Position numbers and translations under genes: made by a program
In this document: piece by piece, positions 13,226 through 41,359 of the stretch
Layout: every line of letters begins with the position of its first letter
Numbering within the stretch: position 1 is the stretch's first letter
The notes under the pieces: model-generated
Database searches by the model: none
The model's input: only the letters and a program-made list of their open reading frames with translations
Told to the model about the DNA's origin: nothing
NCBI GenBank assembly: GCA_963575745.1
Contig: CAUYUJ010000048.1
Coordinates: forward strand, 62,001 to 126,000
DNA length: 64,000 nt
Origin: Prorocentrum cordatum
Taxonomy: Eukaryota
Direction: 5' to 3'

Positions 13226-13367
13226 GCGCCAGGGGCCACAGTGGCAGAGCGCGCTTCGTGTTTCGGGCGGCCACGGCAAGAACGCACCAGAGAAAGAAGC
13301 AGGCCTGCCGTGGGGGGATCGCAGCGGCAGCCTTCTCGCACTCCGATGGGCCCGCAGAGCACTCGGG

Positions 13368-14237: not shown

Positions 14238-14293
<56 letters not shown>

Positions 14294-14550: not shown

Positions 14551-14586
<36 letters not shown>

Positions 14587-14659
14587 GGAGGAGGAGGAGG
14601 AGGAGGAGGAGGAGGAGGAGGAGGAGGACGACGAGGAAGACGACGACGGGAGCCAGCAG

Positions 14660-14715
14660 GTGGCCGCTCTGGCTCGCAGCGAGGCCTCGCCGGTCCGGTC
14701 CATACTGAAGCTCAG
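14660..14715 (+). other. Possible degenerate tandem DinoSL relics upstream of the nested gene ATG
   Basis: GTGGCCGCTCTGGCTC (14660-14675) matches GTAGCCATTTTGGCTC at 12/16, all differences transitions. CCATACTGAAGCTCAG (14700-14715) loosely resembles CCATTTTGGCTCAAG. Confidence 0.35.
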
Positions 14716-14757
14716 CAGCGCGGCCCGCGCGGCGCGCGCCCCGGGGCGGAGACCAAA

Positions 14758-14883
14758 ATGGCACGGGGCCGGGCCCTGCTCCTGTGCGCACTGCTCGCGC
14801 TCCCGCGCCTGCCGTGCGCCGCGCGGGCCGAGGCGTCGGGCAAGAGCCAGGAGCCCGCAGCAGATCGGAGGGGGGGCCTAGAA
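14758..14883 (+). CDS. Coiled-coil protein exon 1, signal peptide (MARGRALLLCALLALPRLPCAARAEASGKSQEPAADRRGGLE)
   Basis: aaaATGG start, basic N-terminus, hydrophobic core and AxA site. Phase-0 GT donor at 14884 fits the exon at 16081; alternative GA donors exist at 14863 and 14881. Confidence 0.65.
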
Positions 14884-14896
14884 GTTGGCACTCGCA

Positions 14897-15052
14897 CCGA
14901 GTCGGGCCTGTCCCTCTACCGGGGGAGTATGCAAGAACAGGCAGAAAGCAGACATGGGACGATGCTTTGGGTCTTGTTTGGCTCTTGTGTGGAGTTTTTT
15001 GTTTTTTATTTTTCCTCCAGAACCCGCCTGTAGGGGGACATGCCCGACCTAA
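14897..15052. mobile_element. Family A MITE in intron 1 of the nested gene
   Basis: Family TIRs; TSD degenerate. Confidence 0.75.
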
Positions 15053-15632
15053 CAATCACCCCAGTATCCCTGGGAGGCGGCACAAAGGGGGGTGACGACT
15101 AGTGGGGGTGGATACAATGGAAAGGGCCATGATATCTCCCCCGATTTCATGGCGCCTCTTTTCATTTGATTATTACGTCCCTGGCCCCCCCCTGGGCCGC
15201 GCACATGCCGCCGGCTATGATTTGCGCCCCCCCTCTTGGAACCCCCTCTTGGACGCCCCCGATATTCAGGCAGGCCTTGAATCGGGAGAAGCCGCTCCAG
15301 AGCGTTCCGGAGCGCTCTCAGAGCGCCCCAGAGCGCTCTGAGACGGCCGCGGCGCCTTATACATCCTTTAGGCCCGCCGTATCCCAGCGATCCCCGATGT
15401 TATCCCTATCTTGGCTTCGTCTTGAGTCTCGGTAAATTGCTTCCACCGAGGGAAGAGGATCCTGATCTCTGCGATCCGAGAGACGATCACCAGCGCCAGA
15501 ATCGAGGATCGGCTTCCTCCAGTGTATAAGTGAGCCCCTGCACGGGTGGTGGCACTTCGCAGGCCCCTGGTGAGAAGCATCCGTACACCACCATGCCCAA
15601 CCAGGGCCGATCTGGTCTGTAGGATGCTAGGT

Positions 15633-15791
15633 TTAAGTCGGAGATGTCCCTCTACAGGAGGAATATCCCAGAATTGTGAAAATATACTCTGGGGACGATT
15701 GTTCGACAGTTGTTCGACTTCTTCGAATATGCGCTGGACCATTTACTGTTGCTCTTCAAAGTACGCCTGTAGGAGGACATGCCCGACCTAA
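15633..15791. mobile_element. Family A MITE
   Basis: Family TIRs; TSD tgctaggt / tgctaggc. Confidence 0.85.
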
Positions 15792-16080
15792 TGCTAGGCC
15801 CTCCTGGCCTCTGCGGGGGGGCCGTGCCGTCGGGGCCACCCCGCTGCGGCAGCGCACGCCGGCCGCGTCCTGGTCCTCAGGCCGTCCACGCCCCGAGCTC
15901 TTTCGAAATCCTGCGCCGCGGGGTGGGGTGACACGCTAGCCGCTTGCGGGGCACAGCGTATCGCTGGGGCCACCACCGCGGCACGCTGAGCAAAAGCTCC
16001 TGACCGTATGCGCTCCATGCCAGGGCTCAGGACCGCCTTGGCCAGGCATGGAAATGGTGTGTGGATGCCTTCTGCTTAAG

Positions 16081-17175
16081 GAGGACCCTGTAAACAAGAT
16101 TATCCGGCTCCTGACGGATATGAAAGACCAGGTGGAGAAGGAAGCTTCAGCGGACATGGTCGGTTACAACAAGTACATGTGTTGGTGCGACACCAACAGG
16201 AAGGAGAAGACGGAGGCCGTCGAGATCGCAACCAAAAAGATCGCTGAGCTGACCACGTTCTTGGAGGAGGGAGCGGCCAAGAAGGAGAAGTTGAAAACAG
16301 AAATTCAGGGCCTGGCTGCCGACATCGCCGAAGACACCGAGACGCTGGCCACTGCGACGGCGCTGCGCCAGGATCAAAACTCGAAGTTCAAAGGGGCGGA
16401 GGCCGACATGAAGGAGACCCGCCAGCTCCTGACTGAGGCTGTGGAGGTGCTTTCCAAGGTTCAGTTGCTCCAGACGGGCGCCCCTGGAGCAGAGGCCGAG
16501 AAGGCCAAGACAGCCCTTGTGCAGGTCCGCAACATTGTCAGCAGGCGATTCCCGAAGTACGAGAGCATCATGCAGCGCGACTTCTATGACGTTCTGGGAT
16601 CCTTCGACGAGATGACACAGTCCAGCCAGGTGCTCACCGGCGCGTTCACGAGCGACGCCGATCGTGCGAAGGCTGCCTCGTTGGCACAGTCCGCACAAGA
16701 GGGCCGACTGCTGCCCTGGGAGAAGACGGAAGAGCAGCTCGGCCAGGAGAAGAAACCGAACGAGCTCATCGGAGCCGCCGCCGGCGCCAAGTCGTACAAC
16801 GCCCGCAGCGGCCGCATCCTCGGAGTGCTCAGCGAGCTGAAGGACGAGTTCACGAGGGACTTGGCACAGGCAACCTACGAAGAGTACCTGGCACTCGTGT
16901 CGTTCCAGAAGCTGAAGTCTGCGAAGGCCTCCGAGATCTTCATCGCCACCGAGACGAAGAAGCGCAAGGAGTCCGCCCTCGCCGATCTCCTCGACGCCAT
17001 CGCGAAGGCCAAGGCGGACAAGGCCGCGATGGAGGACGCCAAGGCGGCGGACGAGGCGTTCCTCGCCCAGCTCGAGCAGAGCTGCAAGGACGAGGACGCG
17101 GCCTACCACCAGCGCCTCGCGGCCCGCACCGAGGAGATCCGGGCGCTGTCCGAGGCCCTGAAGATCCTCACCGAG
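16081..17175 (+). CDS. Coiled-coil protein exon 2 (EDPVNKIIRLLTDMK...ALSEALKILTE)
   Basis: 1.1-kb stop-free frame with GC3-rich codons and A/E/K/L-rich helical sequence (YMCWCD, SGRILGVL, CxxE...R..EIRAL). AG|G acceptor. Ends at 17175 (GA donor) or 17184 (GC donor). Confidence 0.92.
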
Positions 17176-17182
17176 GACGCCC

Positions 17183-17369
17183 AGGCTTCCCAAATAGGGT
17201 CCGAATAGATGGGGTTGGTGGATCGCGCCACGTCGCTGATGCATTGGCCATGCGGCTCGACGTGGAGCCCAGTGTTCTGGACGCCGATGCATCGCCGATG
17301 CATCGGCGATGCATCGGCGATGCGGCTCGCTCCAACGACCCCATCTGCTTCGACCCAACTTGGCGGCCT
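17183..17369. mobile_element. Family C palindromic MITE forming intron 2 of the nested gene (Introner-like)
   Basis: TIR aggcttcccaaatagggtccgaatagatgggg...ccccatctgcttcgacccaacttggcggcct with a (gccgatgcatc) palindromic core. Ends coincide with the splice sites. Confidence 0.82.
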
Positions 17370-17373
17370 CCAG

Positions 17374-17994
17374 GACGACGCCCGCGCCACGTTCGGCCGC
17401 TCCTTCAGCCTGCTGCAGCAGCGGTCGCAGCGGAGGGCGTCCACCGAGGCGGAGCTCGCGCAGGACCGGCGTTCCGAGAAGGCCATGCAGCGCATCGCGG
17501 CGATCGCCAAGAAGCACAAGAATTGGGCGCTAGTGTCGCTGGCCGTGCGCACCCGCCTGGACTCCTTCAAGGAGGTAATCGCTGCCATGGACACCATGGC
17601 GGCCGAGCTGGCAACTCAGCAGAAGAAGGAATACGAGAAGTGGGAGACCTGCAAGTCCGAGATCGACAAGACCGAGGACACCATCAAGGTGGAGGAGCGC
17701 ACGAAGAAGGAGCTCGGCGAGACGCACACGTCGCTGGTGGACAAGATCGGCACTCTGAACGGCGAGATAGCCGAGCTCCGGAAGCAGGTGGCCGACAACG
17801 AGGTGGCCCTCAAGGACGCCGGCGAGGACCGGAAGGCCGAGAACCAGCTGTACCAGGCCTCCGTCATGGACCAGCGCGCCACGGTGCGCATCCTCGAGAA
17901 GGCCCTCGCGCGCCTGAAGACGTACTACGCCATGCTGCAGACGGAGCAGCCCGTGCCCGGCGCCACCGCGCCTGCGCCGCCGGCCAGGGGCAAG
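17374..17994 (+). CDS. Coiled-coil protein exon 3 (DDARATFGRSFSLLQ...PAPPARGK)
   Basis: Same composition and codon bias as exon 2. cag|G acceptor, AAG|gt donor. Confidence 0.92.
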
Positions 17995-18769
17995 GTTCGG
18001 GGGCCGCCGCGGTGTACACCAGCGCAGGTCCTGGCCAGGCCAACCCTGGGCTCAGGATATCATCGGTGTCACCCCAACCTGCTGACACTACGTGTACGTC
18101 GCCCCCCCCCCCCCCCCCGAGAGATCTGACAGTGTGTGCGTCGTGGCGGGCGCTTCCTGGCCACACCGCTCGGGGAGCGATACGCTACAAGATGGGCGTA
18201 CTACGTGTTCGGGTCGGACGCGCGCCTCCGAGGAGGACGCGCTGCACCAGCATGAATCTCTGTGCGTGCCAACATCTCGCTGCTCCGAGGCGGGCGGCCT
18301 GGTCACCACCGCCCAGGGGGGTGTCGGTCGTGGGGGGCCTCCGCGGGCCGCGGGTAGATGCCGAGCCCAGGGTTCTCTGTTGGAGGTTTGCCCCCGGAAC
18401 CGACGGCTGTGGGGCCGGCGAAAGTATCTGCGATAAATATCGACTACACGTAAGAGTGACCCTTCGCCGGAGTGACCTCTGGTGCGGGCCCATTGGGGTC
18501 CCCGATCGCCGAACGCCGGGCGGCAGTGGCGTCTTGCGCGCTTGTGTTTTGCCCCCCCCCCCCCCCCCCCCCCCCCGCGGCCCCCAAAAGGTCGCGCACC
18601 AAAGGTCACTCTTACCCAGGGTCACTTTTACATGTACCCGAAAATAACGAAATCGCTTGAGGATGTCTCGAGCGAAATGCTGGTTCTACAGAGTTCGGGG
18701 ATGTCTCGAGCGGGGGCCTCGTGAGGGTTCAGAATTCAGAGGGTATCTCAGGCGAAATGCTTGATTTCA

Positions 18770-21300
18770 CGTGCCCAGGTCGGCCAGGGGGGTATCCAAA
18801 ATGGTTGTACGCCGCTGGCGCCCCAGACGACCGCATGTTGGATATCCCCCCTGGGTGGGCTGGAACCGTGAGTTTTTCGGTGTGCAGGCCATCAGGGGGT
18901 ATCTAACATGGTGGTCCCGAGCTGGAATCACGTGTTTTCACGTGTCCAGCCCACCAAGGGGGGTATCTAACATGGTGGTCCCGAGTTGGAACAACGTGTT
19001 GTTACATGTTCAGGCCACCCAGGAGGATTATCTAACATGGTGGTCCTGCGCTGGAACCGTGTGTTTTCAAGTGTCCAGGCCACCCAGGGGGGTATCTAAC
19101 ATGGTGGTCTTGCGGTGGAACTACGTGTTTTTACCTGTTCAGGCCACCGAGGGGGATATCTAACATGATTGTCCCGAGCTGGAACCACGTGTTTTTACGT
19201 GTCCAGGCCGCCCAGGTGGGATATCCAACATGGCGTCAGGCCCAACGCCGAAGTATCAGGAAACGCAGGGGGGCCCGAACAGCGCTACCCAAACACATAT
19301 CCCAAAACAGGAAAGTGATGTTGTTTTTCTCTGGACAGGGGTGGCGCTTTGGGGCCTCCCCAGGGAAGACATTGCGAGGATGTCTCGAGCGGGAGCGCGA
19401 ATCCAGCGTATCCAGGCCACCCAGGGGGGTACCTAACATGGTTGTCCCGAGCAAGGACCATGTGTGTTAACGTGTCCAGGCAACCCAGGGGTGTATCGAA
19501 CATGGTTGCCCACAACTGATCCTACGTTTGTTTACGCGTCCAGGCCACCCATGGGGGATATCTAACATGGTACATGGTGGTCCTGCGGTGGAACTGATTG
19601 GTTTTACCTGTTCAGGCCACCAAGGAGGATATCCAGCATGGTCCTCCCGAGCTGGAACCACCTGTTTGCACGTGTCCAGGCCGCCCAAGGAGGTATCTAA
19701 CATGGTGGTCCAGAGCTGGAATCATGTGTTTTTACATGTTCAGGCCACCCAGGAGTTTTATCTAACATGGTTATCCTGCGCTGGAACTGCGTGTTTTTAC
19801 GTGTCCAGGCCACCCAGGGGGGTGTCTAACACGGTTGTCCCGAGCTGGAACCACATGTTTTTACATGTCCAGGCCACCCAGTGAGGTATCTAACATGATT
19901 GCTCCGAATTTGAACCACGTGCTTCTACGTGTCCAGGCCGCCCAATGTGGATATCCAACATGGCGTCGGGCCCAACGCCGAATTATCAGGAAACGCAGGG
20001 GGGCCCGAACAGCGCTACCCAAACACATATCCCAAAACAGGAAAGTGATATTGTTTTTCTCTGGGCAGGGGGTGGCGCTTTGGGGGCCTCTCTAGGGGAG
20101 ACATTGCAAGGATGTCTCGAGCGGGAGCGCGAATCCAGCGTATCCAGGACACGCAGCGGGGGTATATAGCATTGTTGTCCCGAGCTGGAACAAAGTGCTT
20201 TGACATGTCCAGGCCAACCGGAGGCGGTATCTAACATGATTGTCCCGAGCAAGGATCATGTGCTTTAACGTGTCCAGGCCACTCATTGGTGTACCTAACA
20301 TGGTTATCCCGAGCTGGCACCATGTGTTTTTACATGTCCAGGCCATCCGGGGGGGAACCTTACATGGTTGCCCCGAGCAAGGACCAAGGCCACCCAGGGG
20401 TGTATCTAATATGGCTGCCTAGAGCTGACATGCACGTGTTTGCGGGTCCAGGCCACCCAGGGGGGTGTCTTACATGGCTGTCCGGAGCTGGAACCACATG
20501 TTTTTTACATGTCCAGGCACTTAATGAGATATCTAACATGATTGCTCCGAGTGTGAACCATGTTTGTACGTGTCCAGGCCGCTCAGGGTGGGTATCTAAC
20601 ATGGCGTCGGGCCCAACGCTGAATTATCAGGAAACGCACGGGAGGCCGAACAGCGCTACCCGAACACAAGTCATTTTTTCTTGCTCTGGACAGGAAGTGG
20701 CGCTTTGGGGGCCTCTCCAAGGAAGACACTGCGAGGACGTCTCGAGCGGGAGCGCGAACCCAGCGTATCCAGGCCACGCAGGGGGGTATCGAGCATGGTG
20801 GTCCCGAGCTGGAACCAAGTGTTTTTACGTGTCCAGGCCACCCAGGGGGATATCTAACAGGATTGTCCCGAGCTGGGGCCACGTGTTTGTACGTGTCCAG
20901 GCTGCCCAGGACAGGTACCTAACATGGTTGTCCCGAGCTGGCGCCACGTGCTTTTACGTGTCCAGGTCACCCAGGGGGGTATCTAACATGGTTGTTCCGA
21001 GCTTGAAATATCATGTGTGGTTCACGTGTCCAGGCCACCCAGGGGGGTATCTAACATGGTTGTCCCGAGCAGGGACCATGTGTGTTAACGTGTCCAGGCC
21101 ACCCAGGGGTGTATCGAACATGGTTGCTCACAGCTGGTCCCACGTGTGTTTACGCGTCCAGGCCACCCAGGGGGTATTAACGTGGTTGTGCCGAATGGGT
21201 GCCACGTGGTTTTACGTGTCCAGGCCGTCTTGGGGGTATTGAACATAGCGGTACCAAGTGCTTTCACGTGTCCAAGCCACCTAGAGGATATCTAACATGG
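18770..21300. repeat. ~61-bp minisatellite with three interspersed ~170-bp modules
   Basis: Unit gtgtccaggccacccaggggggtatctaacatggttgtcccgagctggaaccacgtgtttttac. Modules containing tatcaggaaacgca near 19230, 19960 and 20600. Confidence 0.9.
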
Positions 21301-22384
21301 GCCTCAAGGGCCTTCCTGGGGGCCTGGAACGGACGTCTAACATGAAGATTTGTTGAGGATATCTTGAGCGAACCATTTGTCTTCACGTGTCCCATTCGCC
21401 CAGGCGGATGTTTAGCATGAGGTGGCACGTCCATTGGCTCGTTCCGTAGAGCGTCCCCCTTTAGCGCGTCCTGCGGTGCGTCTCCACGGCACGTCCCCTG
21501 GCACGTCGCCTGGCGCATCCCTTGGGACGTTCCGTGGCGCGTCCCCCTGGCCCGTCTCCTTGTCAAGTAGCTTTGGGGCAGCTGCTATGTTCTCAGGCAG
21601 CTCGAGCTTAAGATCCAACTCAGTTCGGTCAGGACTCGGATGCAAAGGAGGACTCGATCCACAACACTATAGAGCACACTCTCGGTATGGCACATCGCCG
21701 TTCAGCACGGCGCAGCACAGCACAGCCCTCGGCACGGTACACCAAGATCGATACACCCAGCATTGCAATTTGGCACGTTCCTTTGCACGTTCCGTGACGC
21801 GTCCCGTCTCGAGTCCCCCTGACACGTCGCGCGGCGCGTCCCCTGGCACGTCCCGTGGCACGTCCATCGGCACGTTCCGTAGCGCGTCCCCTTGGCATGT
21901 CCCGCGGTGCGTCCCCATCGCACGTCCCCTGGCACGTCGCCTGGCGCGTTCTTGGGACGTTCCGCGGCGCGTCCTCCTAGCATGTCCCCCTGTAAATTAG
22001 CTCTGGGGCAGCTACTATGTGCTCAGGTAGCTCGAGCTTAAGATTCAAACCAGTTCGGTCAGGACTCGGATGCAACGGAGGACTCCATCCACAGCGCTAT
22101 AGAGCACAATCGCGGCATGGCGCATCGCAGTTCAGCACGGCGCAGCACAGCACAGCCCTCGGCACGGTGCATCAAGATCGATACACTCAGCATTGCGTTT
22201 GCCCGTCGTCCAATCAGTTGTACGTTGCCATGCCTTACGTTTCTATATTCCTTTCCGGTTTCGTGGGTCGATCATATTGCCCTTTACTTATCATTCAGGC
22301 CGGTGGGGCCGACCATGACCAGAGCCACCACCAGCTGAGGGCTCTGGGCATACGTGCGCATACCGTCCTGACCAAGACAGGAGG

Positions 22385-22729
22385 GCATACACACACCGAC
22401 GCAGACACACCTAGACACAGACATACAGACACAGACATACAGACACACAGACACACAGAGACACACAGACACACACACATACACCCACACACATACACCC
22501 ACACACCCACACCCACACCCACACCCACACGCACACGCACACGCACACACACACACACGCACACACGCACACACAGACACACAGACACAGACAGACACAC
22601 AGACACAGACACACAGACACACAGACACTCAGACACACAGACACACACAGACACACACACACACACGCGCACACGCACACACGCACACACGCACACACGC
22701 ACACACGCACGCACGCACGAACGCACACA

Positions 22730-22760
<31 letters not shown>

Positions 22761-24070
22761 CGGCCCGCCCGCCCGCACGCACGCACGCCCGCCCGCCCGC
22801 CCGCCCGCGCCCGAACACACACACACACACACACTTACACACACTTACACACACTTACACACACTTACACACACTTGCACACACTTGCACACACTTACAC
22901 TTACACACACACACTTACACTTACACACACTTACACACAACACACACAACACACAACACACACACACACAACACACAACACACACAACCACACAACACAC
23001 CACACACAACACACAACACACAACAAACACACAACAAACACACACGCACACGCACACGCACACGCACACGCACACGCACACGCACACGCACACGCACACG
23101 CACACGCACACGCACACGCACACGCACACGCACACGCACACGCACACGCACACGCACACGCACACGCACACGCACACGCACACGCACACGCACACGCACA
23201 CGCACACGCACACGCACACGCACACGCACGCGCACGCGCACGCGCACGCGCACGCGCACGCGCACGCGCACCGCACGCGCGCACGCACACGCACACGCGC
23301 GCGCACACGCGCACGCACGCGCGCACGCACACGCGACGCACACGCACACGCACCCACACCACACACACACACACACGCACACACACACACCACACGCACA
23401 CACACACACACACCCACACACACACGCACACGCACACGCATACGCACACGCATACGCATACGCGCACGCGCACGCGCGCGCACGCGCGCGCGCGCCCGCG
23501 CGCCCGCGCGCGCCCGCGCGCCCGCGCCCCGCGCGCCGCGCACCCGCGCACCCGCGCGCCCGCGCCCGCGCACCCGCGCACCGCGCACCCGCGCACCCGC
23601 GCGCACCCGCGCACCGCGCACCCGCGCGCGCGCGCACCCGCGCACCCGCGCACCCGCGCACCCCCACCCCACACCCCCACACCCCCACACCCCACACCCC
23701 ACACCCCCACACCCCCACACACACATACACACATACACACGCACGCGCACGCGCACACGCACACGCACACGCACACGCACACACACACACACACCACACA
23801 CCACACACCACCACACACACACACACACCACACACCACCACACACACACAATCACACACACAAACGCACGCACGCACGCACGCACGTACATACACAAACA
23901 CACGCACACGCGCACACGCGCACACGCGCACACGCGCACACACGCATACACGCACACACGCACACAATCACACAATCACACACGCACGCAGCACGCACAC
24001 GCACACACAATACACACGCAAGCACGCACTCATGCACACACGCACACAGCACGCACACGCACACACAATA
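22385..24070. repeat. CA/CG-rich compound microsatellite
   Basis: (CA)n, (CACACG)n and (CGCACCCG)n blocks. A similar (CAACACA)n tract lies at ~29230-29910. Confidence 0.95.
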
Positions 24071-24142
24071 CACCGATCCTGGGCCCAGGACGGGGCTGGG
24101 TAGGGCCGATGTAGAGTGTATAACGTCGGCGCCCCCGTGCAG

Positions 24143-24442
24143 GCGTACGAGAAGGGCGCCGGCGCCGCAGGCGTCCTGCAGGTCATCCAGATGGTCATCG
24201 AGGACGCCACGCGCACAGAGCAGGCGCTCGACAAGGACGAGAACGATGCGCAGAAGCGCTATGCGGCCATCGTGAACGACCTCACGGCCAGCATCGAGGC
24301 GGACCGCATCGCGATCGAGGAGAAGGAGCAGCAGGTCGCCGCAACCGAGGTGGAGAAGAGCGAGACAGAGGAGGCCCAGCTGGCCAACGAGGAGGAGCTC
24401 AAGAACCTGGCGGAGCTGTTGCACGCGCACCACCTGGAGTGC
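24143..24442 (+). CDS. Coiled-coil protein exon 4 (AYEKGAGAAGVLQVIQMVIEDA...LLHAHHLEC)
   Basis: cag|G acceptor, in frame with exon 3. Parallels the SYNARSGRILGVL segment of exon 2 (internal duplication). GA donor at 24443. Confidence 0.9.
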
Positions 24443-31505: not shown

Positions 31506-32419
31506 GTCGCAGTAGAGCGCATCGCAGTCAACCCCGCCTGTCCGTGGGGCGTCCCCTGGCGCGCTGGCGCGTCCCCTGGCGCGTCCCTTGCGACGTTCTG
31601 GCGTGAGGTGCCTTGGCACGTCCCTTTGCACGCCACTCGGCGTGGCGGCACGTTCCCTGGCTCGTCCTCTGTCGCGTGTCCTGGCTCTTCCCAGGCGTTT
31701 CCCCTGCCCGTTCCGTGGCGCACCCTTTGCAACGTCCCTTGGCATGACGTCCTCTGGCCGCCCCATGGCACGCGCCTTGGCACGTCTCGTGAGAGGTCCC
31801 TGACACGTCCAGGGTGCGTCCCCTTTTACGTTCCCTGACACGCCCCCTGGCGCATCCCCTTGTTGCGCCCCTGGCACATCCTGCGGCGCGTCCGTGAGCC
31901 TGTGCCCCTCGACTTTCCGGAGCTGAGTCGGATTCCGAGGGCGAGTTGATTGAACGTCCCGCACATTTCTGCTTCAACTAGCTCTGGGGCAGCTACGTTG
32001 TGCTCAGTCAGCTCGAGCTTGAGATCCTGATCAGTTCGGTCGGCACTGGGATGCGAGGGAGGACTCGACCCACAATGCTATAGAGCACAATCGTGACATG
32101 GCACATCGCATTTCAGCACTGCACAACACAGTGAAGGCCTTCGGCGCGGTACATCAAGATCGATGCACTCAGCATGTCAATTGCCCGTCGCCCAACCAGG
32201 TGTCTTGAAAACGTTGCCATGCCTCACATTTCGACATTCCCTTCGGGTTCGTAGGTCGATCATGTTTTCATATGCGCGCTAGGTGAGAAGAAGAGAGAGA
32301 GAGAAATAAAGAAAAGGAGAGAGAGAGAGGAATAGAGAGAGAGAGAGAGATAGAGAGAAGGACAGAGAGGGGGTGGGGGGGGGCAACAAACAAAGAAGAA
32401 ACGAACACGAGATACGGGA

Positions 32420-32450
<31 letters not shown>

Positions 32451-34709
32451 TTAAAAACAATAGTTTTATGTGTGTTCTTTTTATATCGGGGGGCGGGGCC
32501 CCTCCTCCCCTGCGGGAAACTGAATGAGCCTGGCGCTTGCTTTGCGTCTGTGCGATACGTAAACACTACTGTTCGTTCGCTCTCCTCTCCCTCCGCCTTG
32601 TCCTCCCCCTCCTCGTCGTTCTCCCCCATCTTACTTCTCCTCCTCCACCTCCTCCTCCTCTTCCCCATCCGCTTCCTCATCGTTCTCGCCCTTCTCTCCA
32701 TCCGCGTCTGCCTTTTCCTCCTCCTTCGCATCCTCGCCCTCCTCTTCCTCCCTCCCCTCTCTATCAATTTTCTGATGCTCGTCGTCGTCCCTCCCTCCCT
32801 CCCTCGTCCCCATGTTCCTCCTACCTCATGAGGCGTCATGTCTCCCTGGTCCGCCGCCGCTCTTTCTCCGGATATCGAACCCGCAGCCGCCATCCACTCA
32901 CAGTGCGGAAACCATTTGATGGGACACATTGTGCACGTGATGCATGCAGCGTTTTTGTTTGTTGTTTACACCATCCATGTCATCTGCATGAATGAATGAA
33001 AGCGAGCGAAGGGCGCAACGACTCAGGAGCCCAGTATGGATGTTTTTTGTTTGGCCGCGACGTGAAGGAGTTATGGAAACGACACGTAGCACGCTGCGCA
33101 AAAAATTACAGGCGGCGAACGCGAACGTCGCGACGAGCGGGGCATTCAAACATTGATGCCCTTTGTAATGTGCGGGGGCAGCGTGCAGCATTGAAAACGC
33201 ATAAAACATTGGAATATTGACAGGAGTTTGCAAGAACAAGTATTTCAACTAGCACAACCAATAGAGACACGTTACCGATGTGTAAGGCAAGGTTTTTTGC
33301 AGTATACATCATAATTTGAGAGCCAAGACGAAACGCGCGAAAGGCGCAGCAAAGGGCGAACAAAAGAAACGCGCTCATACTTGTCCATCGCTCGACATGA
33401 GCGTGCTCGACAAACGGAGACTGCAATTACACGCGTTGCGCCCGCGCGACGCGGCCCGTGTTGCAAGCGCGCGCAGGAATCGACGAAGGCGGCCATGGGT
33501 GCATCCAAAATTGCATGCCCCATCTGACCCGTTGAAACGCGCTCAAACCGATAGCCAGCAGCACACGTTAAGCGAAAGCGAGAGGTACGCGAAGGACGGG
33601 TGAGGGGTGCATTCAAAAGTAAATGTCCCTCAAATATGCGAGGCCCCCGCATGGAGTGAACGCCAATGGGTTTCAAAGCGTCACCATCTGTTCGCGCGCG
33701 CTCGCCATGTTGCGCGGAAAAAATTGACGACTTCATGCCAGATCGTTCAATGTTCGCAACATTGCCGCTTCTTTCTTGAATTTTTTAGAGCAAATGTTGG
33801 GCGACCGCCCGCATTCAGAATTTATCGAGAATGTGTTGAATTTACCTTTCGCCGCATTCCACGAAACCAGAAGGGCATGTGGGTCGTGGACGAATCTCCG
33901 CGAAAAACAAATCTCTGATTGGGGTGGTTCAGGACTCCCTCAACGCGCCCGCATGGGTGGATTACTTCCCGTGACAGCTGGAAGCTGCGGCGCTTCCAAT
34001 ATTCGAAGCGTACATCTTTCATGGCAGACATCCCGCGCCCAAAATCAACGAACAATGCACCTGACTTCTTCATTTGGGCGGCATTCGTGGGATCCTTTCA
34101 CTGGGGTGCGTCCGACATGGATGAAATCCCTCGAGCAAGTGAGACCGATGGCTCCCTGTTTCGCCCGTCGCGATCCTAATGAATGGCAGGCATCCCGCTC
34201 CCAACAAAAACGAACCACGCGAGTAGTTCTTCCCTCTTGACGACAGTAACAGATGACAGGCAGGGACGGGCAAAGCACATGGCCCCAAGATGCATTAGGG
34301 CGGCGCTGGGAACGCCTTTCGTTCGCTGGCAAGTGACCCCTCGATTCCCCCAGAGGTTCCCCACGTTTTGCCACCGCATCGGACGTGCCGGCCCAGATTG
34401 CGCGAAGACTTCACAACGGGTCCTTCGAGGAATCCCTAGGCTCTTCCACGAGGCTCAAGCTGATCGATGCGTTGGACATTGCTTGTTCGGAAGTCGCGGT
34501 CTCGCGACCGTGGAGCGTTCGGCATGGTTTGCGGGCTGCCCGAGGCAGCACTCTGGCGTGGCCTGCTGCAGCCCTCGCGCGAGCCCAGCACAGCCCCACG
34601 ACGGCCTACGACTGCATGCGATCGGGATCTTTTGCACAGCGTGTCGCTCTGCCGGTCCTGGCCCTTCGCGCTTCGGTGCGACACTCTATCCCTCTCGCGG
34701 TCCCCCAGC

Positions 34710-34889
34710 TCGAAGACCGATTTCTGACCACATCCACCTCTGGATCCTCGATTCTATGATAGGCCCTCGGGGGTGGAAGTGGGTAGTTTTTCCTTCCCCT
34801 GGAGCGGGGAAACTGCCCACCTCCACCTCTGGAAACCGTTTTTCGCAAGGCACCTCGGGAAGTGGGTGTGGTCAGAAATCGGTCTCCTA
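34710..34889. mobile_element. TIR MITE with 5-bp TSD
   Basis: agaccgatttctgaccaca...tgtggtcagaaatcggtct inverted repeat, flanked by ccagc/ccagc. Confidence 0.78.
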
Positions 34890-35714
34890 CCAGCGTCAAC
34901 GTCCCGGGCCGTTCCGAGCCTCCCGCCCCGCGGAGCGGGGCGACACGCTGCTCGGTTGCAGCGCGGAGCTTGGCGCCGGGGCCGCCGCGACACGCTAAGC
35001 AAAAGTTCCCAGCCGTAGCCCGAGAAAGTCCAAGCCCAGTCCAAGATAGCCCGAACGCCCTCACCACCACGAGGCCAGAATCGCAAGTCCTGTCTGGACG
35101 ACCTCGCCCCAACGGCCCGCAGACTACTCTGGACAGCCCCGGAGCCATGTCTGTCCCGCCCTCGACGACCAGAGAGCGGGCCCTCCGCCGGCCCCGAAGG
35201 ACTGCCCAGGGAGCTCCAAAGTGTTCCCGAGGATTCTCAGAGAGATCGCCACCCGCTCCACACTCCCCCCAGCCTCTCAGCCACGCGCAGAGGGAGGTGG
35301 GGGGAGGGGGGAGGGCTTCTTAGAAGCACCCCTGCTTCTTAGAAGGCGCGGGCCTTATCTATAGGTGCAAGGCCGGCGCCTTCTAAGATGCAGCCTCCTT
35401 CTAAGAAGCCCTCCCCCCTCCCTCCACCCCCTTGTGCTCGCCGCCAAGCCTCATCACAATGGAGCGGAGGTCGGTGTCTCTCCTCCGGTTTCCCCCGCCT
35501 CCTTGATCCCTCCTTCCCGTCGCTCCTACCACTTCGTATCCCTGCGGCCCTTCTTAAGCGCGCGACGCGCGCGCGCGTGGGTTGGGAACTTCGGCTTAGG
35601 GGCGTCGCGCGGCGCACCGGGTCCGGGGGCCCGGGGCGGGGACCTCGACCGCAAATGTGCACCCCGGGGGGCCCGGAGGCTCGTCGGGGCTTGCCGGAGG
35701 CCTCCCCAGTCAGG

Positions 35715-36980
35715 CAAGACGGCCCAAGAAGCGCCCAAGACGGCCCAAGAAACTTCCAAGAGGCCTCCAAGAGGGCTCCGAGATGCTGAAGATGGCCTCC
35801 AGACGTCCAAGGACGCCCCCAAGAGGCCCCAAGAAGCCTCCAACATGCGTCCCAAGAGGGCCCCTAGACGCAAAAATTGGCCCATTCCCTTCGTAAAACG
35901 TACATTTTCAACAAAGTTGTCTTTTGGGCTTTCCGACGTTACAGGACGGCCCAAGAGGCGCCCAAGACCGCCCCAAGACGGCCCAAGAAGCTTCCAGAGG
36001 GCCCCAGGACAGCCCAAGAGGGCCCCAAGACGGCCCAAGAGGCGCCCAAGATGGCCCAAGAGGGCCCCAAGACGGGCCCAAGAGGGGGCCCAGAGGGGGA
36101 CCACGAACCGCAAGCTCGAGCCTTCCGCCCCAAGAGGCCGCCAGGAGGCCCCCAGGAGGCCCCTCAAGAGGCCCCAGGAGACCCCAGACGTCCAAGGACG
36201 CCCCCAAGAGGCCCCAAGAAGCCTCCAACATGCGTCCCAAGAGGGCCCCTAGACGCAAGAATTGGCCCATTCCCTTTGTAAAACGTACATTTTTAACAAA
36301 GTCGCCTTTTGGGCTTTCCGACGTTACAGGACGGCCCAAGAGGCGCCCAAGACCGCCCCAAGACGGCCCAAGAAGCTTCCAAGAGGGCCCCAGGACAGCC
36401 CAAGAGGGCCCCAAGACGGCCCAAGAGGCGCCCAAGATGGCCCAAGAGGGCCCCAAGACGGGCCCAAGAGGGGGCCCAGAGGGGGACCACGAACCGCAAG
36501 CTCGAGCCTTCCGCCCCAAGAGGCCGCCAGGAGGCCCCCAGGAGGCCCCTCAAGAGGCCCCAGGAGACCCCAGACGTCCAAGGACGCCCCCAAGAGGCCC
36601 CAAGAAGCCTCCAACATGCGTCCCAAGAGGGCCCCTAGACGCAAAAATTGGCCCATTCCCTTCGTAAAACGTACAGTTTTAACAAAGTCGCCTTTTGGGC
36701 TTTCCGACGTTACAGGACGGCCCAAGAGGCGCCCAAGACCGCCCCAAGACGGCCCAAGAAGCTTCCAAGAGGGCCCCAGGACAGCCCAAGAGGGCCCCAA
36801 GACGGCCCAAGAGGCGCCCAAGATGGCCCAAGAGGGCCCCAAGACGGGCCCAAGAGGGGGCCCAGAGGGGGACCACGAACCGCAAGCTCGAGCCTTCCGC
36901 CCCAAGAGGCCGCCAGGAGGCCCCAAGGAGGCCCCTCAAGAGGCCCCAGGAGACCCCAGTCGTCCAAGGACGCCCCCAAG
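35715..36980. repeat. ~386-bp tandem repeat, ~3.3 copies, built from ccaaga/ggcccc subrepeats
   Basis: Near-identical ORF starts at 35877, 36262 and 36648. Confidence 0.92.
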
Positions 36981-39900
36981 ACGCTTCGCGTCACCAATTT
37001 CTTCTCGCAACGATTCCTGGGTCTGTGACTCGACAGAACCTAAGCGCGCGCGAAGCGCGCGCGTGGTTCTATATGTATATATATATATATTATATATATG
37101 TGCGCTTTTCATGTGCAGCGATGCACATACATACGTGTGTACATATATATGTACATATATTTGTATGCACATTCACACATAGTTACATGTGTATATATAT
37201 ATATATGTGTGTGTATTAATGCACCTATGTATGATAAAGATATATAGATGGAGGATGCGGAGAGACAGATTTAGCGTCGGCTCTGTTGGTCCGTCTCGGG
37301 GCCCTTGCTGGGACCTTCCAGGGATGCCTGGGCGCTCTCTTGGGGCCTGTCGGGAGCATTCGTGGGCAAACTGAGGCCGCCTTGGGGTCCTCGGCGGGCC
37401 GTCTTGGTTCCGACGAGCTCCCTGTGGGGATCGTCGGGGGCTGTCCTGGCGGCCTCTTGGACCGTCTTGGGCGATGGTACGCCGAAAGGCATGCTGCTAG
37501 CACTCAAGGGAGGAAAAAACACCTGGACCGGACAATTGGCGTTTACTAAGCGGCCCTGGGCGTTTACTAAACAGCCTTGCCCTGCTTTATTATTTCCTTG
37601 TGTGCGTTTACTAAACGGCTTCGCGAGTCGGGGAGGTTAGTATCGGGGAGGATATTCTTGCCCTCTAGACACTGCGCGCAAGAACCAAATATTGAGCCCA
37701 CAGAGCGGGATACAGGGTTGGCCCCCTCATAGGGGGAAGTCTGCACGCAGAGTTTGAACTCATTGGGTGTGGGGGGTACTGCGCCGAGTCCTCCTCCTCC
37801 TCCTCCTCCTCGACCCCCTTCCTCCCTCCCTCCCTGCCTCCCTCCTTCGTCCTCCAGGATCGAGGCGTTGGGCACGCGTCTGACACTCCTCGAGCCTCCA
37901 GAGTGGGCCGACAGGTGCGGTACCAATCGTTGCAACGTTTCTTGGGGTCGTGTTGGCGTCCTTTGGGAGGGGGTTGTAAGGCCTCGGGGGCCAGTGGAGA
38001 GCCTGTCGTGGTTCATGGGGCACGGAGTGCGCAATGGGTGTGCCGAGTGGAGGCTCCGAGGAGCCGCTTCGGGGGCCAGGTGAGCGCCCCACATGCGCGA
38101 AGTGCGTGAGGGGTGTGCCGCGGTTTCGTGTTTCCAGGCTGTATGTTTACGTATCCCATGGGCCCTGAGGCCCAAACCATTTGTATGTTTACGTGTCACA
38201 GGGGCCTGAGAGCGCAGCTTACTCGTCATTTCACGTGCCCCACGAGAGTATGGAGCAGGAACTGCGTGTTCGGTGAACTGGGTTGAGGCTTCCGTGGCCT
38301 TGAGGGCAGGCCATTCGTATTTTTACGTGTCCCAGTAGCTGTGATGCAGTCCTGGTTTGCGTTGGCCGACGGAATGGGCGAGGCAGCGTTTGGCATGCCT
38401 CCTGCGTGCCAGCTCACTCTCTTCCACCCTCCTTTTGGTCTTCGTGTACATTCGGAGCCCGCAACACGGCCAGGGCCTGCAGGAGGCCCGCCGGATGCAA
38501 TCGCTTCGCTCACTCCGCAGGCCCGTACCGTGTACAATGTTCAGTGGCATTCGGCCCGGCTGGGGCGTTGCCCAGAAGCCTTGTCGGGAGGCTCGTTGGG
38601 GTCTCCCGGGGGCCTCGATCGGAGGCCTCGTCGCTGTGGGGGGACCGCTCGTGGCATCTCGGGGTTGCCCTGGGGCCTCCAGGGGGCCCTTTTGGAGGCC
38701 TCTTCGGGGGCCTTGCTGGCAGTCTCGGCGGCTATCTTCGGGGAGAAATGGCTCCTAATGGCAGTTCGGGTTCCCCTCTTTGGGCCCCCCTTGGGTGCCT
38801 CTGGAGCCCCCTTGGGGGGCCCTCTCGGGCTATCCTGGAGTCCTCCTGGAAACCTCTTGGGTTGTCTTGGGGTGATGTGGGGCCCCCCTAGTCGGAAACT
38901 GGAGCATATACATTACCAGCGGCGTGTTGTTTTTCAATCCTTGGACTTTTTGAGGGTCAGGTACGACGTCGGGGTGGTGTGGTGTATAGTTGTTTCCCCG
39001 TTTTCCTGGGGAGATGACGAACATGTATACACCAGCATCCCGTATACACCAGGATCCGCTTTCCTGTGCGAATTTCAGTGCAGGGCTCGAAAACGCGTCG
39101 GTGTCGTCTTGGTGTCGGAAGCACGAAAAGGCGATGACGCGAACGTCGCTGACAAGACTTAAAGACAATCACATATGTTTGCCCCTCGGGGCCTCCGTGG
39201 GGTTATCTTGGGGCTCTCTTCACGCGTTTCGGAGGCGTTTCGGAGGCGTCTCGTGCTAACCAGAGATTAATTACCTTGGGCGTGTTTGAGCGCTCTTGGG
39301 CCGTCTCGGGCCATCTTGAACTCTCTTGGTGGCTCCATGGGGCGCCATTGGGAGCCTTGGAGGCCGCGCTCAGGACGATTACCATCTTTGAATCGAGTCT
39401 GCCGGGAGTCTGCCGGGGCACTTTACGTCCGGGGACTCTCAGGGGCCGTCCCGCGCGCCCCTTGGGAGTCCTGTGCGCCTGCTACTGGAGATCTTACCAC
39501 GCCTCTGGCCAGTTGGGCCGGCGAATTTGACGTTGCTGGGGGGATGGTTTTGATCGCCTGGGACTCTCCTCGGCCCTCTTGGGACGCCTCTGGATGCTTC
39601 TTGCGTGCTGTGTGGGTCTCATGGGCCCTTTCCCATTCCATTCCGTTCCACTGCGAGTCTGGGAGGTGTCTTTGGTTGTCTTGGCGGCCTCTGGGGACTC
39701 TCTTGAGCCACTCTGCAGCAGCATTGTTGAAACAGCCTCTCGGACTCCTACTTGGCACGTCTCCTCCATGTCTCATGTCTGCAATTATTGACGCTTTGCG
39801 TATCACCAGCAGCTACGCCTTTGTAGTTCAATTCACCTTCGGCAGCTTGCAGCCCCTGGCAGTCAGCAGCCCCTGGCAGTCAGCAGCGCGCCTGCAGCTC

Positions 39901-40951
39901 GATGCACGTTTGCAGCCCTTGGCAGTTTTGCAGCCCTGCCCCCTCCCCCTCGGCTACCTCCTGGTCCCGGCCTGAGTTGCGGCGGTAGGCCTGCTTGCGC
40001 TACGTAACTTAGGACTTCGCGCGGCCCGCTCGGACCTTGACACGCCGTCGGCGCGCTCACCTGCGGCTGGTACCAAAAAAGTATCTCCAGCAGCCCATCC
40101 GTGAACGATTCCCAGGCGAGATGTCGTGTCAGGGGCGGCGGGTGGAGCACTGGCGCAACAATGAAAGGGTGCACCAGTTCAACCAAAGCTGCCGAAGCTG
40201 CGGTCAACCTGAACATCGGCCATACATTTTTCACTTGGCGACCTTTGAGAGCCCCTTGCAGGCTGCTTCGGGCTATTTGAAGGCTCTGTTGGGGTCCTTT
40301 GGGGTATCTTGGGGGCCATCTCGGCGCTCCCTCGGGGCCCTTTGTGGGACCTTGGCGGGCCCGTGGGGTTGTCTTTCAGGCAATCGACCGCAATCCTGCT
40401 TGGCTTTCGGCCCTCGTGATTATTGGAGCCTTCTCGGGGTGCTCTTGTGGGGCCTTGGGGCCCTCTCGGGGTCCTCTTAGAATACTCTGAGCCTCTCTGG
40501 GGCCCATCCGAAGCAAATAGACGAGACAGCAAACAACAAATTTAGTGATAACGCGCTACAAAAGCTGCGTGATTTGGGCATGTTCGGGGCGTCCTTGGGA
40601 GGCTGTGTTGGGGTTTTTCGGGTGCATGTTCGAGGCCATCTTGAGCAAAATCAGAGGATTTTGCTTGATCGTTGGGGAAATTTTGGCCGGTTGGGACCGC
40701 CCTGGCCCTTTTCTGTTGTGCCAGCACGGACCTTGCGACACCTCGCGCCCCCCCGTCCACACACACACACACCGGGGACAAGGTACGATGGTAGACTCCC
40801 CCCCAGAGGGGAAAACGGAGTCGTTCTGCAAGGGCTGATGCCCTTGACCGCCCGTGTCCAGAGGGCTGTGAATTGTGAGCCCCGCTGTGGAGAGACCGAC
40901 GGAGCTGGAGGAAACGTCTCACACGGCGGGTGATCCCGAGAAGGGTCGGCG

Positions 40952-40996
40952 GACTTCCTCCTCAAGTACTTCGACATCCGTCAGAAGGCGCGCCAG
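40952..40996 (+). CDS. Coiled-coil protein exon 5 (DFLLKYFDIRQKARQ)
   Basis: Completes the C-D-F-L-L-K-Y-F-D-x-R-Q-x-A-R motif begun in exon 4. CAG|gt donor. Acceptor is non-canonical (cg|G). Confidence 0.82.
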
Positions 40997-41000
40997 GTTC

Positions 41001-41171
41001 GGGCGACGAAATCTATACGTGTCCACTGCTCCCTGGCCAGGCCCATCCTGAACCCAGGAGCCTGTGTATACGCCTTCCTGGCCAAGCCAGGAGGGCGTGG
41101 CGTGTACACCGCTGCTGGCTTCAGGATGGGCCTGGCCAGGGAGCAGTGGATATGCATAGATCCCGTCGCCC
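41001..41171. mobile_element. Hairpin MITE forming intron 5 of the nested gene
   Basis: 41001-41061 versus the reverse complement of 41111-41171: 54/61 identical, ungapped. CAGG at both junctions. Confidence 0.85.
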
Positions 41172-41176
41172 TACAG

Positions 41177-41239
41177 GAGGAGATGGACGCCATCGGCGAC
41201 GCCAAGGCGATCCTCTCGGGCGCCGACTTCGGCAAGTAG
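41177..41239 (+). CDS. Coiled-coil protein exon 6, terminal (EEMDAIGDAKAILSGADFGK*)
   Basis: cag|G acceptor, in frame, TAG at 41237-41239. Spliced CDS totals 2250 nt (749 aa plus stop). Confidence 0.88.
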   Translation, partial: EEMDAIGDAKAILSGADFGK

Positions 41240-41359
41240 CACATCGTGAGCGGATGCGCCCGGCCGGCGGCCCGCGCTCGTTGAGGGACACTGGACGCCC
41301 GCGCGACCCCGAACGACGGGGAGGGAGGACTTGTGTGATGGCCACGGGCAAGGGGGGTC

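What the first reader, a model, noticed from the sequence alone, without database searches (positions are those of the whole stretch)
14660..41239. Nested gene looks like a retrocopy that was re-intronised by transposons
Seen: SL-like relics 40-100 nt upstream of the ATG (weak), long exons (1095, 621 and 300 nt versus 36-108 nt in the host gene), and four of five introns bounded by inverted repeats. Established: dinoflagellates recycle SL-capped mRNAs into the genome, and Introner elements are reported in this group. Inference: mRNA retroposition into the AKR intron, then Introner gain, then intron inflation.
Basis: partly seen in the sequence, partly recalled or inferred. Interest (0 to 1): 0.7.

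Follow-up and report, generated by a model that had tools for sequence, protein, structure and literature searches.

The report
Re-intronised retrogene nested in reductase intron
An active dinoflagellate gene for a trichocyst-matrix-type protein sits inside a 34-kb intron of an active reductase gene; it looks like an old copy of a messenger RNA that later regained introns from transposons, which is known biology, but one 16.5-kb intron is removed exactly although it lacks the normal end signal.

Summary
The nesting is real. A 738-aa trichocyst-matrix-family gene (six exons, 14758-41239) lies same-strand in a 34,177-nt intron of an aldo-keto reductase (AKR) gene. Transcript-derived proteins match both genes across their junctions (737/738; 163/163). 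Three of five introns have clear terminal inverted repeats, one has a short offset repeat, one has none. One spliced-leader relic (14660-14676) is modestly supported: about 5% by chance unanchored, 0.5% at the position where a relative's mRNA carries the leader tip. The second relic is background. A 92%-identical paralogue elsewhere apparently shares intron 4 and probably intron 3, so the last copying step was DNA-level and came after intron gain. A retro origin of the lineage is likely; retroposition into this particular intron is unproven. Nested genes, leader-tagged retrogenes and Introners are all described in dinoflagellates. The unusual part was not in the finding: intron 4 (16,509 nt) and host intron 48238-52035 have no AG acceptor in any register, yet transcript-derived proteins read straight across. 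The scan has already noted such introns on other DNA of this genome.

The parts
8389..8476 (+). Host AKR exon upstream of the nested gene (5' boundary not defined, at least 88 nt)
   Evidence: P0171 matches its last 15 codons and runs on into 42654
8477..42653 (+). Host intron H1, 34,177 nt, GC..AG, 6-nt junction repeat; holds the nested gene
14010..14648 (.). (GAG)n/(GAT)n microsatellite ending about 12 nt before relic 1 (limits approximate)
   Evidence: read from the sequence
14660..14676 (+). Relic spliced leader 1: 12 of 16 bases, four A>G or T>C changes, 2-nt loss at the 3' end; mostly inside the transcribed 5' UTR; preceded by an AG|G site at 14659/14660
   Evidence: RNA contigs start at 14663 and 14664
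14758..14850 (+). Nested exon 1 (93 nt; hydrophobic, signal-peptide-like N-terminus, judged by eye)
14851..16080 (+). Intron 1, 1230 nt, GA..AG, 5-nt junction repeat, no terminal inverted repeat
   Evidence: joint in 4 of 4 runs
16081..17175 (+). Nested exon 2 (1095 nt)
17176..17373 (+). Intron 2, 198 nt, GA..AG; hairpin Introner with 6-nt junction repeat; relatives at 42056-42564 and 48671-48843
   Evidence: joint in 4 of 4 runs
17374..17994 (+). Nested exon 3 (621 nt)
17995..24142 (+). Intron 3, 6148 nt, GT..AG; decayed terminal inverted repeat of about 60 bp, inflated by a 64-nt satellite, dispersed repeats and CA microsatellite
   Evidence: loose ends carry exon-4 letters in 4 of 4 runs
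24143..24442 (+). Nested exon 4 (300 nt)
24443..40951 (+). Intron 4, 16,509 nt; possible ends GA..CG, AT..GG, TC..GA or CC..AC, none with AG; 11-bp perfect inverted repeat at 24465-24475 / 40943-40953
40952..40996 (+). Nested exon 5 (45 nt)
40997..41176 (+). Intron 5, 180 nt, GT..AG; near-perfect hairpin Introner, 4-nt junction repeat
41177..41239 (+). Nested exon 6, coding part to the stop; 3' UTR similarity to related mRNAs reaches 41280
42654..42724 (+). Host AKR exon (71 nt)
47713..47775 (+). Host AKR exon (63 nt)
48143..48237 (+). Host AKR exon (95 nt)
48238..52035 (+). Host intron H4, 3798 nt; possible ends TA..GC, AG..CT or GC..TT, none with AG acceptor; no detectable inverted repeat
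52036..52105 (+). Host AKR exon (70 nt)
52464..52499 (+). Host AKR exon (36 nt)
58450..58557 (+). Host AKR exon (108 nt); the gene's remaining exons were not found in the window

Best explanation
The nested gene is an expressed member of the trichocyst-matrix-protein family. Its ancestor was copied back into the genome from a leader-capped mRNA (inferred), leaving one leader relic and an intron-free reading frame. It then gained introns from small hairpin DNA transposons (structure shown for introns 2, 3 and 5; likely for 4; open for 1). Introns 3 and 4 were inflated by satellites and other repeats (shown as content; order inferred). After intron 4, and probably 3, existed, the gene was duplicated as DNA (inferred from the paralogue's gene model). 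One copy now lies in the AKR intron. Whether it was retroposed there and later copied out, or arrived there as an intron-bearing DNA copy, is about even. Both genes are transcribed on the same strand and spliced independently (shown at transcript-contig and protein level); trans-splicing near the relic is the likely way the nested gene gets its own 5' end (inferred). Intron 4 is removed exactly without an AG acceptor (shown at protein level).
For: Splicing of this copy: joints for introns 1 and 2 and exon-4 loose ends in 4 of 4 runs from 4 studies; P0121 equals the six-exon model at 737 of 738 residues. Nesting: P0171 equals the host model at 163 of 163 residues, across the 34-kb intron. Relic: mRNA contig L001 (about 89% identical) starts with the last 4 leader bases followed by sequence homologous to window 14677 onward; the leader aligned to end at 14676 is matched by 631 of 127,952 positions. 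All four mismatches are A>G or T>C. Intron density is 5 per 2217 nt against 6 per 531 nt in the host (Poisson 1e-6). Introner structure and family copies. Shared intron 4: the genome models P0122/P0123 read LE-YSA-DF where transcripts read LE-C-DF; the nearest AG in the window would give LE-WSA-DF. Tree: window copy and P0122 are sisters, 98/94.
Against: Relic 1 alone is weak (65 of 1278 tiles). Its longest exact match is 6 nt, below the 9-mer used by Song et al., and it has lost the TTTT/TTTG core. The anchor rests on a 4-base match in one contig. No leader letters were seen on this copy's contigs (141 loose ends not shown). No poly(A) run or target-site duplication. Intron 1 has no inverted repeat and could be ancestral. 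Low intron density is also typical of highly expressed dinoflagellate genes. The paralogue's DNA was not seen; shared positions are inferred from protein models. Junctions 4 and 5 were not seen as RNA letters.
Confidence: 0.6

Rival explanations
1. First reader's strict version (a sub-case of the best reading): the mRNA was retroposed directly into this AKR intron, all introns were gained here, and the paralogue is a later DNA copy made from this locus.
For: The relic starts about 12 nt from a microsatellite edge, as earlier scan notes report for leader-headed inserts (unchecked). Same-strand nesting. Compatible with shared introns if the copying went outward.
Against: No poly(A) or target-site duplication. 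Nothing orders the two loci. The only genome-annotated AKR paralogue found lies on a record of different length (321,987 nt) from the nested gene's paralogue (486,332 nt), which gives no sign of the pair having been copied together.
Confidence: 0.3
2. The gene arrived in the AKR intron as an already re-intronised DNA copy (segmental or transposon-carried duplication); retroposition happened earlier, elsewhere (the other sub-case).
For: Intron 4 and probably intron 3 shared with a 92% paralogue; sister relation; no retro scars at the 3' end.
Against: No boundaries of a DNA duplication were identified; the paralogue's flanks were not available.
Confidence: 0.3
3. No retroposition: the leader likeness is chance, the gene is intron-poor because its family is highly expressed or lost introns in place, and it moved by DNA duplication.
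For: Unanchored probability 2.6-5%; two better leader matches elsewhere in the window, one of them antisense over the ATG and hard to interpret; highly expressed genes are intron-poor in Amphidinium.
Against: The match ends at the homologous leader tip of L001 (anchored 0.5%); all four mismatches are AT>GC transitions; at least three introns look transposon-made, as expected after complete loss.
Confidence: 0.25
4. Intron 4 is a gene-breaking insertion or an assembly artefact; the matching transcripts come from an unseen identical copy without it.
Against: The paralogue's model shows the same failure at the same site while paralogue-type transcript proteins read LECDF, so two hidden copies would be needed. 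The frame is intact in all six exons, and dN 0.054 against dS 0.33 to L001. X1 contig 7 has no mismatch in exon 3 and runs 401 nt further, room for exons 4, 5 and most of 6, although those letters beyond 30 nt were not shown.
Confidence: 0.1
5. Intron 4 is spliced by the ordinary route after RNA editing turns the CG at 40950-40951 into AG, or in two steps through an internal site.
For: The GA..CG register has a usual dinoflagellate GA donor and differs from AG|G by one base; intronic RNA edits are mentioned for P. cordatum (passage).
Against: Host intron H4 is not one base from a canonical pair in any register. No micro-exon of 4 or more codons lies in either intron.
Confidence: 0.12

Closest known systems
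DinoSL-relic retrogenes (Song et al. 2017, PMC5585692, passages; Stephens et al. 2020, PMC7245778, passages; P. cordatum supplement of PMC10666404, passages; Slamovits and Keeling 2008 seen only as cited)
   Same: Degenerate leader 50-100 nt before the ATG; expressed; over 20% of genes in two Symbiodinium genomes are reported to carry relics, with about as many introns as other genes.
   Different: The relic here is below the published 9-mer threshold and lacks the TTTT/TTTG core; the parent gene is not identified.
Introner-like elements of Symbiodinium and Polarella glacialis (Roy et al., bioRxiv 10.1101/2020.10.14.339549, parts 1-2 of 4 read plus a term search) and introner elements of P. 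cordatum (2.4% of introns, PMC10666404 supplement 1)
   Same: Introns 2 and 5: short hairpins with terminal inverted repeats and splice sites taken from a 4-6-nt junction repeat, GA or GT donor, AG|G acceptor; family copies elsewhere in the window.
   Different: Introns 3 and 4 are inflated to 6 and 16.5 kb; intron 4 has no AG acceptor. No family was assigned to a published class.
Non-canonical introns and introner elements of Amoebophrya A25/A120 (Farhat et al. 2021, PMC7789003, passages)
   Same: Exact removal without GT-AG; 8-20-nt inverted repeat near the ends, splice sites variable relative to the hairpin.
   Different: Here in a free-living core dinoflagellate; 16.5 and 3.8 kb against means of 120-240 nt; junction repeat only 2 nt and 1 nt (3-5 nt in that definition); host intron H4 has no detectable inverted repeat.
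Nested genes of Amphidinium carterae (25.2% of genes, PMC12584245, passages) and Polarella glacialis (6.5-8.4%, PMC7245778, passages)
   Same: A multi-exon gene inside a long intron of a short-exon host; both expressed.
   Different: The passages read do not explain how the nested genes arrived.
Trichocyst matrix protein T1-F family (PF27870)
   Same: All 120 listed homologues carry PF27870; Atlas top hits 0.95-0.97 name it.
   Different: The local Pfam copy gave no significant hit; localisation to trichocysts was not tested.

Membership tests
DinoSL-tagged retrogene | Leader relic upstream of the ORF above background | tested here: inconclusive
   65 of 1278 tiles, 128 of 5000 shuffles; anchored 631 of 127,952
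DinoSL-tagged retrogene | At least a 9-nt exact leader match (Song et al. threshold) | tested here: not met
   longest exact run 6 nt (threshold)
DinoSL-tagged retrogene | Relic ends where the parent-type mRNA begins | tested here: met
   L001 leader tip (4 nt) abuts the homologue of 14677; one contig only
DinoSL-tagged retrogene | True leader followed by relic in the mRNA | tested here: inconclusive
   contigs include the relic from 14663/14664 but show no leader letters
DinoSL-tagged retrogene | Poly(A) remnant or target-site duplication | tested here: not met
   no A6 run in 41240-41700; best 8-nt repeat matched by 238 of 1000 controls; expected to decay in old copies
DinoSL-tagged retrogene | Parental introns absent | not testable with these tools
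   no genomic DNA of paralogues was obtained: no genome held, and the nine loci are transcript-like
Introner / ILE (introns 2, 3, 5) | Terminal inverted repeats at the splice sites | tested here: met
   0, 1, 0 of 3000 random pairs
Introner / ILE (introns 2, 3, 5) | Short direct repeat across the junction | tested here: met
   6, 3 and 4 nt; not diagnostic, as most host introns have 3-6 nt too (general in dinoflagellates)
Introner / ILE (introns 2, 3, 5) | Repeated family with other copies | tested here: met
   intron 2: 78% and 68% to two other copies; introns 3 and 5 resemble each other only weakly (82% over 28 nt, E 0.02)
Introner / ILE (introns 2, 3, 5) | Spliced out of the mRNA | tested here: met
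   introns 2, 3; intron 5, protein level
Introner / ILE (introns 2, 3, 5) | Absent from orthologues' DNA (recent gain) | not testable with these tools
   no orthologous genomic DNA obtained
Introner / ILE (intron 1) | Terminal inverted repeats | tested here: not met
   714 of 3000, 1200 of 4000
Amoebophrya-type non-canonical introner (intron 4) | No canonical ends in any register, yet removed exactly | tested here: met
   (protein level)
Amoebophrya-type non-canonical introner (intron 4) | 8-20-nt inverted repeat near both ends | tested here: met
   11 bp, 22 nt inside the 5' end and flush with the 3' end; 4 of 4000
Amoebophrya-type non-canonical introner (intron 4) | 3-5-nt direct repeat at the junction | tested here: not met
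   2 nt only
Amoebophrya-type non-canonical introner (intron 4) | Repeated family | tested here: inconclusive
   no other copy of either end in the window; none of the 3' end among scan windows; whole genome not available
Nested gene | Host mRNA spliced across the intron that holds the gene; nested gene expressed | tested here: met
   P0171 163/163; P0121 737/738
Trichocyst matrix protein (PF27870) | Profile match | tested here: met
   precomputed domain on 120 of 120 listed homologues; Atlas; no hit in the local Pfam copy
Trichocyst matrix protein (PF27870) | Protein located in trichocysts | not testable with these tools
   needs proteomics or immunolocalisation

The most novel reading that the evidence does not exclude
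This core dinoflagellate removes multi-kilobase introns exactly without an AG acceptor and without needing a terminal hairpin. Intron 4 (16.5 kb, only an 11-bp offset inverted repeat) survived in two expressed paralogues 8% apart, and host intron H4 (3.8 kb) has no detectable inverted repeat at all. That would point to a splice-site definition other than AG or a simple end-to-end hairpin, would make genes recycled from mRNA unusually tolerant of transposon insertion, and would mean that many published gene models are wrong at such sites.
Probability: 0.45. Interest if true: 0.7.

Novelty: new variant of a known kind. Interest (0 to 1): 0.4.

Why it matters
As a locus it is a worked example of the dinoflagellate cycle: mRNA recycling strips introns, hairpin transposons put new ones back, repeats inflate them, and DNA duplication spreads the result. 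Each step is published; the nested position is common (6-25% of genes in two species). The practical lesson is that leader relics date a gene lineage, not the insertion at a given locus. The part that could surprise a specialist is exact removal of 16.5-kb and 3.8-kb introns without AG, with a paralogue's annotation failing at the same site. It gives concrete junctions for lariat mapping and long-read tests, and may bear on the low share of AG|G acceptors (79.7% against at least 93% in other non-parasitic species) discussed in the P. cordatum review file.

Tried and rejected
No whole genome was held, so intron positions could not be compared on DNA. The second leader relic was rejected as background. 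A candidate 8-nt target-site duplication (14643 / 41313) was rejected (238 of 1000 controls). The GC donor at 17185 for intron 2 was rejected in favour of the GA donor at 17176, because contigs skip 198 nt and proteins read LTEDDA. The in-frame AG at 40942-40943 as acceptor of intron 4 was rejected for the main product: it predicts LEWSADF, while P0121 reads LECDF. Micro-exons inside intron 4 or host intron H4 were rejected (no match of 4 or more codons). Terminal inverted repeats in host introns: H1 and H2 score moderately (11 and 53 of 3000) but 54 and 69 of 1000 composition shuffles do as well, so they are not claimed; H3-H6 have none. P0001, P0002, P0004 and P0124 are mosaics of two paralogues, most simply assembly chimeras; they were left out of the tree. 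Single-exon searches for the host AKR found nothing useful; an alignment query found it. Scan look-ups near this place, by sequence and by words returned nothing. Host GC3 used a last exon off by one base and is not used. Host intron rows H3, H4a and H5 used provisional coordinates and are replaced.
Full report
Setting. The window is GC-rich, repeat-laden eukaryotic DNA. The closest named genome records of both genes' paralogues are Prorocentrum cordatum gene models, and earlier scan notes name the same species for this genome (unchecked). No whole genome was available.

The nested gene. Six exons (14758-14850, 16081-17175, 17374-17994, 24143-24442, 40952-40996, 41177-41239) give a 738-aa ORF. 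A search with exon 2 found 315 proteins among 7999 scored candidates; all 120 listed carry PF27870, named trichocyst matrix protein T1-F by the Atlas. The local Pfam copy gave no significant hit. P0121, from a 2448-nt JGI contig, equals the model at 737 of 738 residues; the one change (Q107K) matches a variant at 16306 in run X12. Of 24 listed runs, 18 hold at least half of the words of 15900-18050, with shares of 0.67-0.77, close to the exon share of about 0.80 (my arithmetic). I laid 4 of the 24 runs (4 studies; one labelled RNA, one guessed RNA, two unlabelled) on 14645-18080 only. All 4 show the joints for intron 1 (1230 nt) and intron 2 (198 nt), and loose ends at 17995 that carry exon-4 letters. 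Junctions 4 and 5 were therefore seen at protein level, not as RNA letters. Against L001 (about 89% identical mRNA contig), dN is 0.054 and dS 0.33 over exons 2-6, so the gene is under purifying selection.

The host. Seven AKR exons lie in order on the same strand from 8389 to 58557. P0171, from a 990-nt JGI contig, equals the model at 163 of 163 residues, including the junction across the 34,177-nt intron. The nesting is thus real, barring an unseen identical AKR copy. Nested genes are common in dinoflagellates: 25.2% of genes in Amphidinium carterae (PMC12584245, passages) and 6.5-8.4% in Polarella glacialis (PMC7245778, passages).

Introns. Introns 2, 3 and 5 have terminal inverted repeats reached by 0, 1 and 0 of 3000 random pairs. 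Introns 2 and 5 fold into long hairpins. Intron 2 has relatives at 42056-42564 and 48671-48843 (78% and 68%), both inside host introns; introns 3 and 5 resemble each other weakly. This is the pattern described for Introner-like elements (Roy et al., bioRxiv 10.1101/2020.10.14.339549, parts 1-2 of 4 read); such elements are reported in 2.4% of P. cordatum introns (PMC10666404 supplement 1, passages). Intron 1 has no inverted repeat. Intron 4 has an 11-bp perfect repeat, flush with the 3' junction but 22 nt inside the 5' end (4 of 4000); by gapped score it is weak (170 and 53 of 3000). Junction direct repeats are not diagnostic, since most host introns have them (general feature, PMC5032977, passages). 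Inflation is visible as content: 87% of intron 3 and 41% of intron 4 are tandem or window-dispersed repeats, including an element of about 850 bp that is 84% identical between them. Density is 5 introns in 2217 coding nt against 6 in 531 nt of host (Poisson 1e-6, on a small host sample). Highly expressed genes are intron-poor in A. carterae, which the authors already linked to reverse transcription (PMC2488372, passages), so density alone does not prove retroposition.

Leader relics. Relic 1 (14660-14676) matches 12 of 16 leader bases. Unanchored it is marginal: 65 of 1278 tiles and 128 of 5000 shuffles. Relic 2 is background. What lifts relic 1 is position. L001 begins with the last four leader bases, directly followed by sequence homologous to window 14677 onward; another contig of that set begins with seven leader bases, so truncated leaders do occur there, while a 3-base match in L007, an internal fragment, shows the chance level. 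Aligned to end at 14676, the leader scores as well at 631 of 127,952 positions. The four mismatches are all A>G or T>C. RNA contigs of this copy start at 14664 and 14663 in two runs, so most of the relic is in the 5' UTR; no leader letters were displayed. The relic fails the 9-mer threshold of Song et al. and has lost the TTTT/TTTG core (PMC5585692, passages). No poly(A) run or target-site duplication was found. I put a retro origin of the lineage at about 0.7.

Shared introns change the story. The P. cordatum models CAK0827224.1 and CAK0827223.1 (P0122, P0123) are a paralogue with 680 of 738 residues identical, sister to the window copy (98/94 in a 20-row tree that left out four mosaic proteins and the other hits). 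It is not in this window; whether it is on the same scaffold is unknown. At junction 4 these models read LE-YSA-DF, while paralogue-type transcript proteins read LE-C-DF. Forcing the nearest AG in the window gives LE-WSA-DF. The simplest reading is that the paralogue carries an insertion at the same site with a similar non-AG end. P0001 and P0124, with paralogue-type 3' halves, lack the four residues after junction 3, as an alternative acceptor 12 nt downstream would give; this suggests intron 3 is shared too, though mis-assembly is possible. So an intron-bearing copy was duplicated as DNA after intron gain. Either locus may be the original. For a distant paralogue (P0008 group, 439 of 738 identical), the partial model CAK0793704.1 goes out of frame within what is exon 4 here (a 50-residue tail compatible with another frame): a weak hint of an unshared intron, or an indel error.

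Non-AG introns. The only cuts that restore P0121 give GA..CG, AT..GG, TC..GA or CC..AC for the 16,509-nt intron 4. The only cuts that restore P0171 give TA..GC, AG..CT or GC..TT for the 3798-nt host intron H4. No micro-exon of four or more junction codons lies in either. An AKR paralogue (about 81%) is split into two adjacent models, CAK0856170.1 and CAK0856171.1, within two codons of H4. Such introns are described for Amoebophrya (PMC7789003, passages; reviews PMC11453091 and PMC11282704, passages). Two searches and a term search of the Roy preprint showed no description for a free-living core dinoflagellate. The journal version of Roy et al. was not read, bioRxiv supplements were not seen, and only 2 supplementary files of PMC10666404 were held as text; its review file notes 79.7% AG|G acceptors. 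The scan has reported this class at least six times in other pieces of this genome (unchecked notes). New here are the length, the apparent sharing between paralogues, and a case with no inverted repeat. One search for nested genes together with retroposition in dinoflagellates returned a single general review, seen as a listing only. PMC12130899 and PMC12014239 (passages) added background only; some searches were listings.

Verdict. Shown: nesting, expression and splicing of both genes, Introner structure of three introns, repeat inflation, and non-AG ends with exact protein-level read-through. Inferred: retro origin (about 0.7), DNA duplication after intron gain (about 0.8), trans-splicing at the relic. 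Open: how the gene reached this intron. The finding as given is a combination of known processes; the non-AG giant intron is a variant worth testing but already flagged by the scan. Interest 0.4.

Noticed in passing
window 48238-52035: Host AKR intron with no AG acceptor in any register and no detectable inverted repeat, read through exactly by P0171; an AKR paralogue's annotation breaks within two codons of the same place.
   Followed up: partly
window 55468-55488 (+): Best spliced-leader match of the window (score 31), inside the last host intron; no recognisable coding sequence follows in 300 nt. Possibly a dead or non-coding leader-headed insert.
   Followed up: partly
window 14747-14767 (-): Second-best leader match (score 28) lies antisense across the nested gene's ATG. 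The homologous region of L001 does not show it, so it may be chance helped by start-codon context.
   Followed up: partly
window 14663-14664: RNA contigs of two studies start at the position matching the leader's internal AG|CC site, here mutated to GG|CC; may be a branch point from leader addition or simply falling coverage.
   Followed up: no
P0002: Mosaic protein that switches from the window copy to a distant paralogue at the end of a shared 12-residue stretch coinciding with junction 2; assembly chimera is simplest, trans-splicing between paralogues not excluded.
   Followed up: no
P0001, P0124 (junction 3): Four residues missing after junction 3, consistent with an alternative acceptor 12 nt into exon 4.
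   Followed up: partly
window 42056-42564 and 48671-48843: Two further copies of the intron-2 hairpin family sitting inside host introns, not acting as introns themselves; the first is inflated by a TG repeat.
   Followed up: partly
window 14886-15052, 15633-15797 and copies at about 2720, 3210, 7250, 13370, 48300, 49080, 53450: A frequent 150-180-nt inverted-repeat element family, 68-93% alike in its matches, two copies of which fill intron 1; its ends are hit by many unrelated RNA contigs.
   Followed up: no
window 12804-13415 (+): Open frame fragment that by eye recalls the N-terminal part of a tyrosine-recombinase retroelement protein (recalled resemblance, not tested).
   Followed up: no
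window 60996-61901 (-): A GC3-rich coding-like stretch on the opposite strand, probably within a later AKR intron; not identified.
   Followed up: no
L002 3' end (about 985-1022): The 3' UTR of a related mRNA runs into a (GAG)n-like repeat, and the window copy is preceded by (GAT)n/(GAG)n; fits earlier notes on leader-headed inserts at microsatellites, but such repeats are everywhere in this window.
   Followed up: no
window 35799-36981, 26024-26480, 27657-28494: Recent tandem duplications (386 bp x3, 152 bp x3, 419 bp x2) inside intron 4.
   Followed up: no
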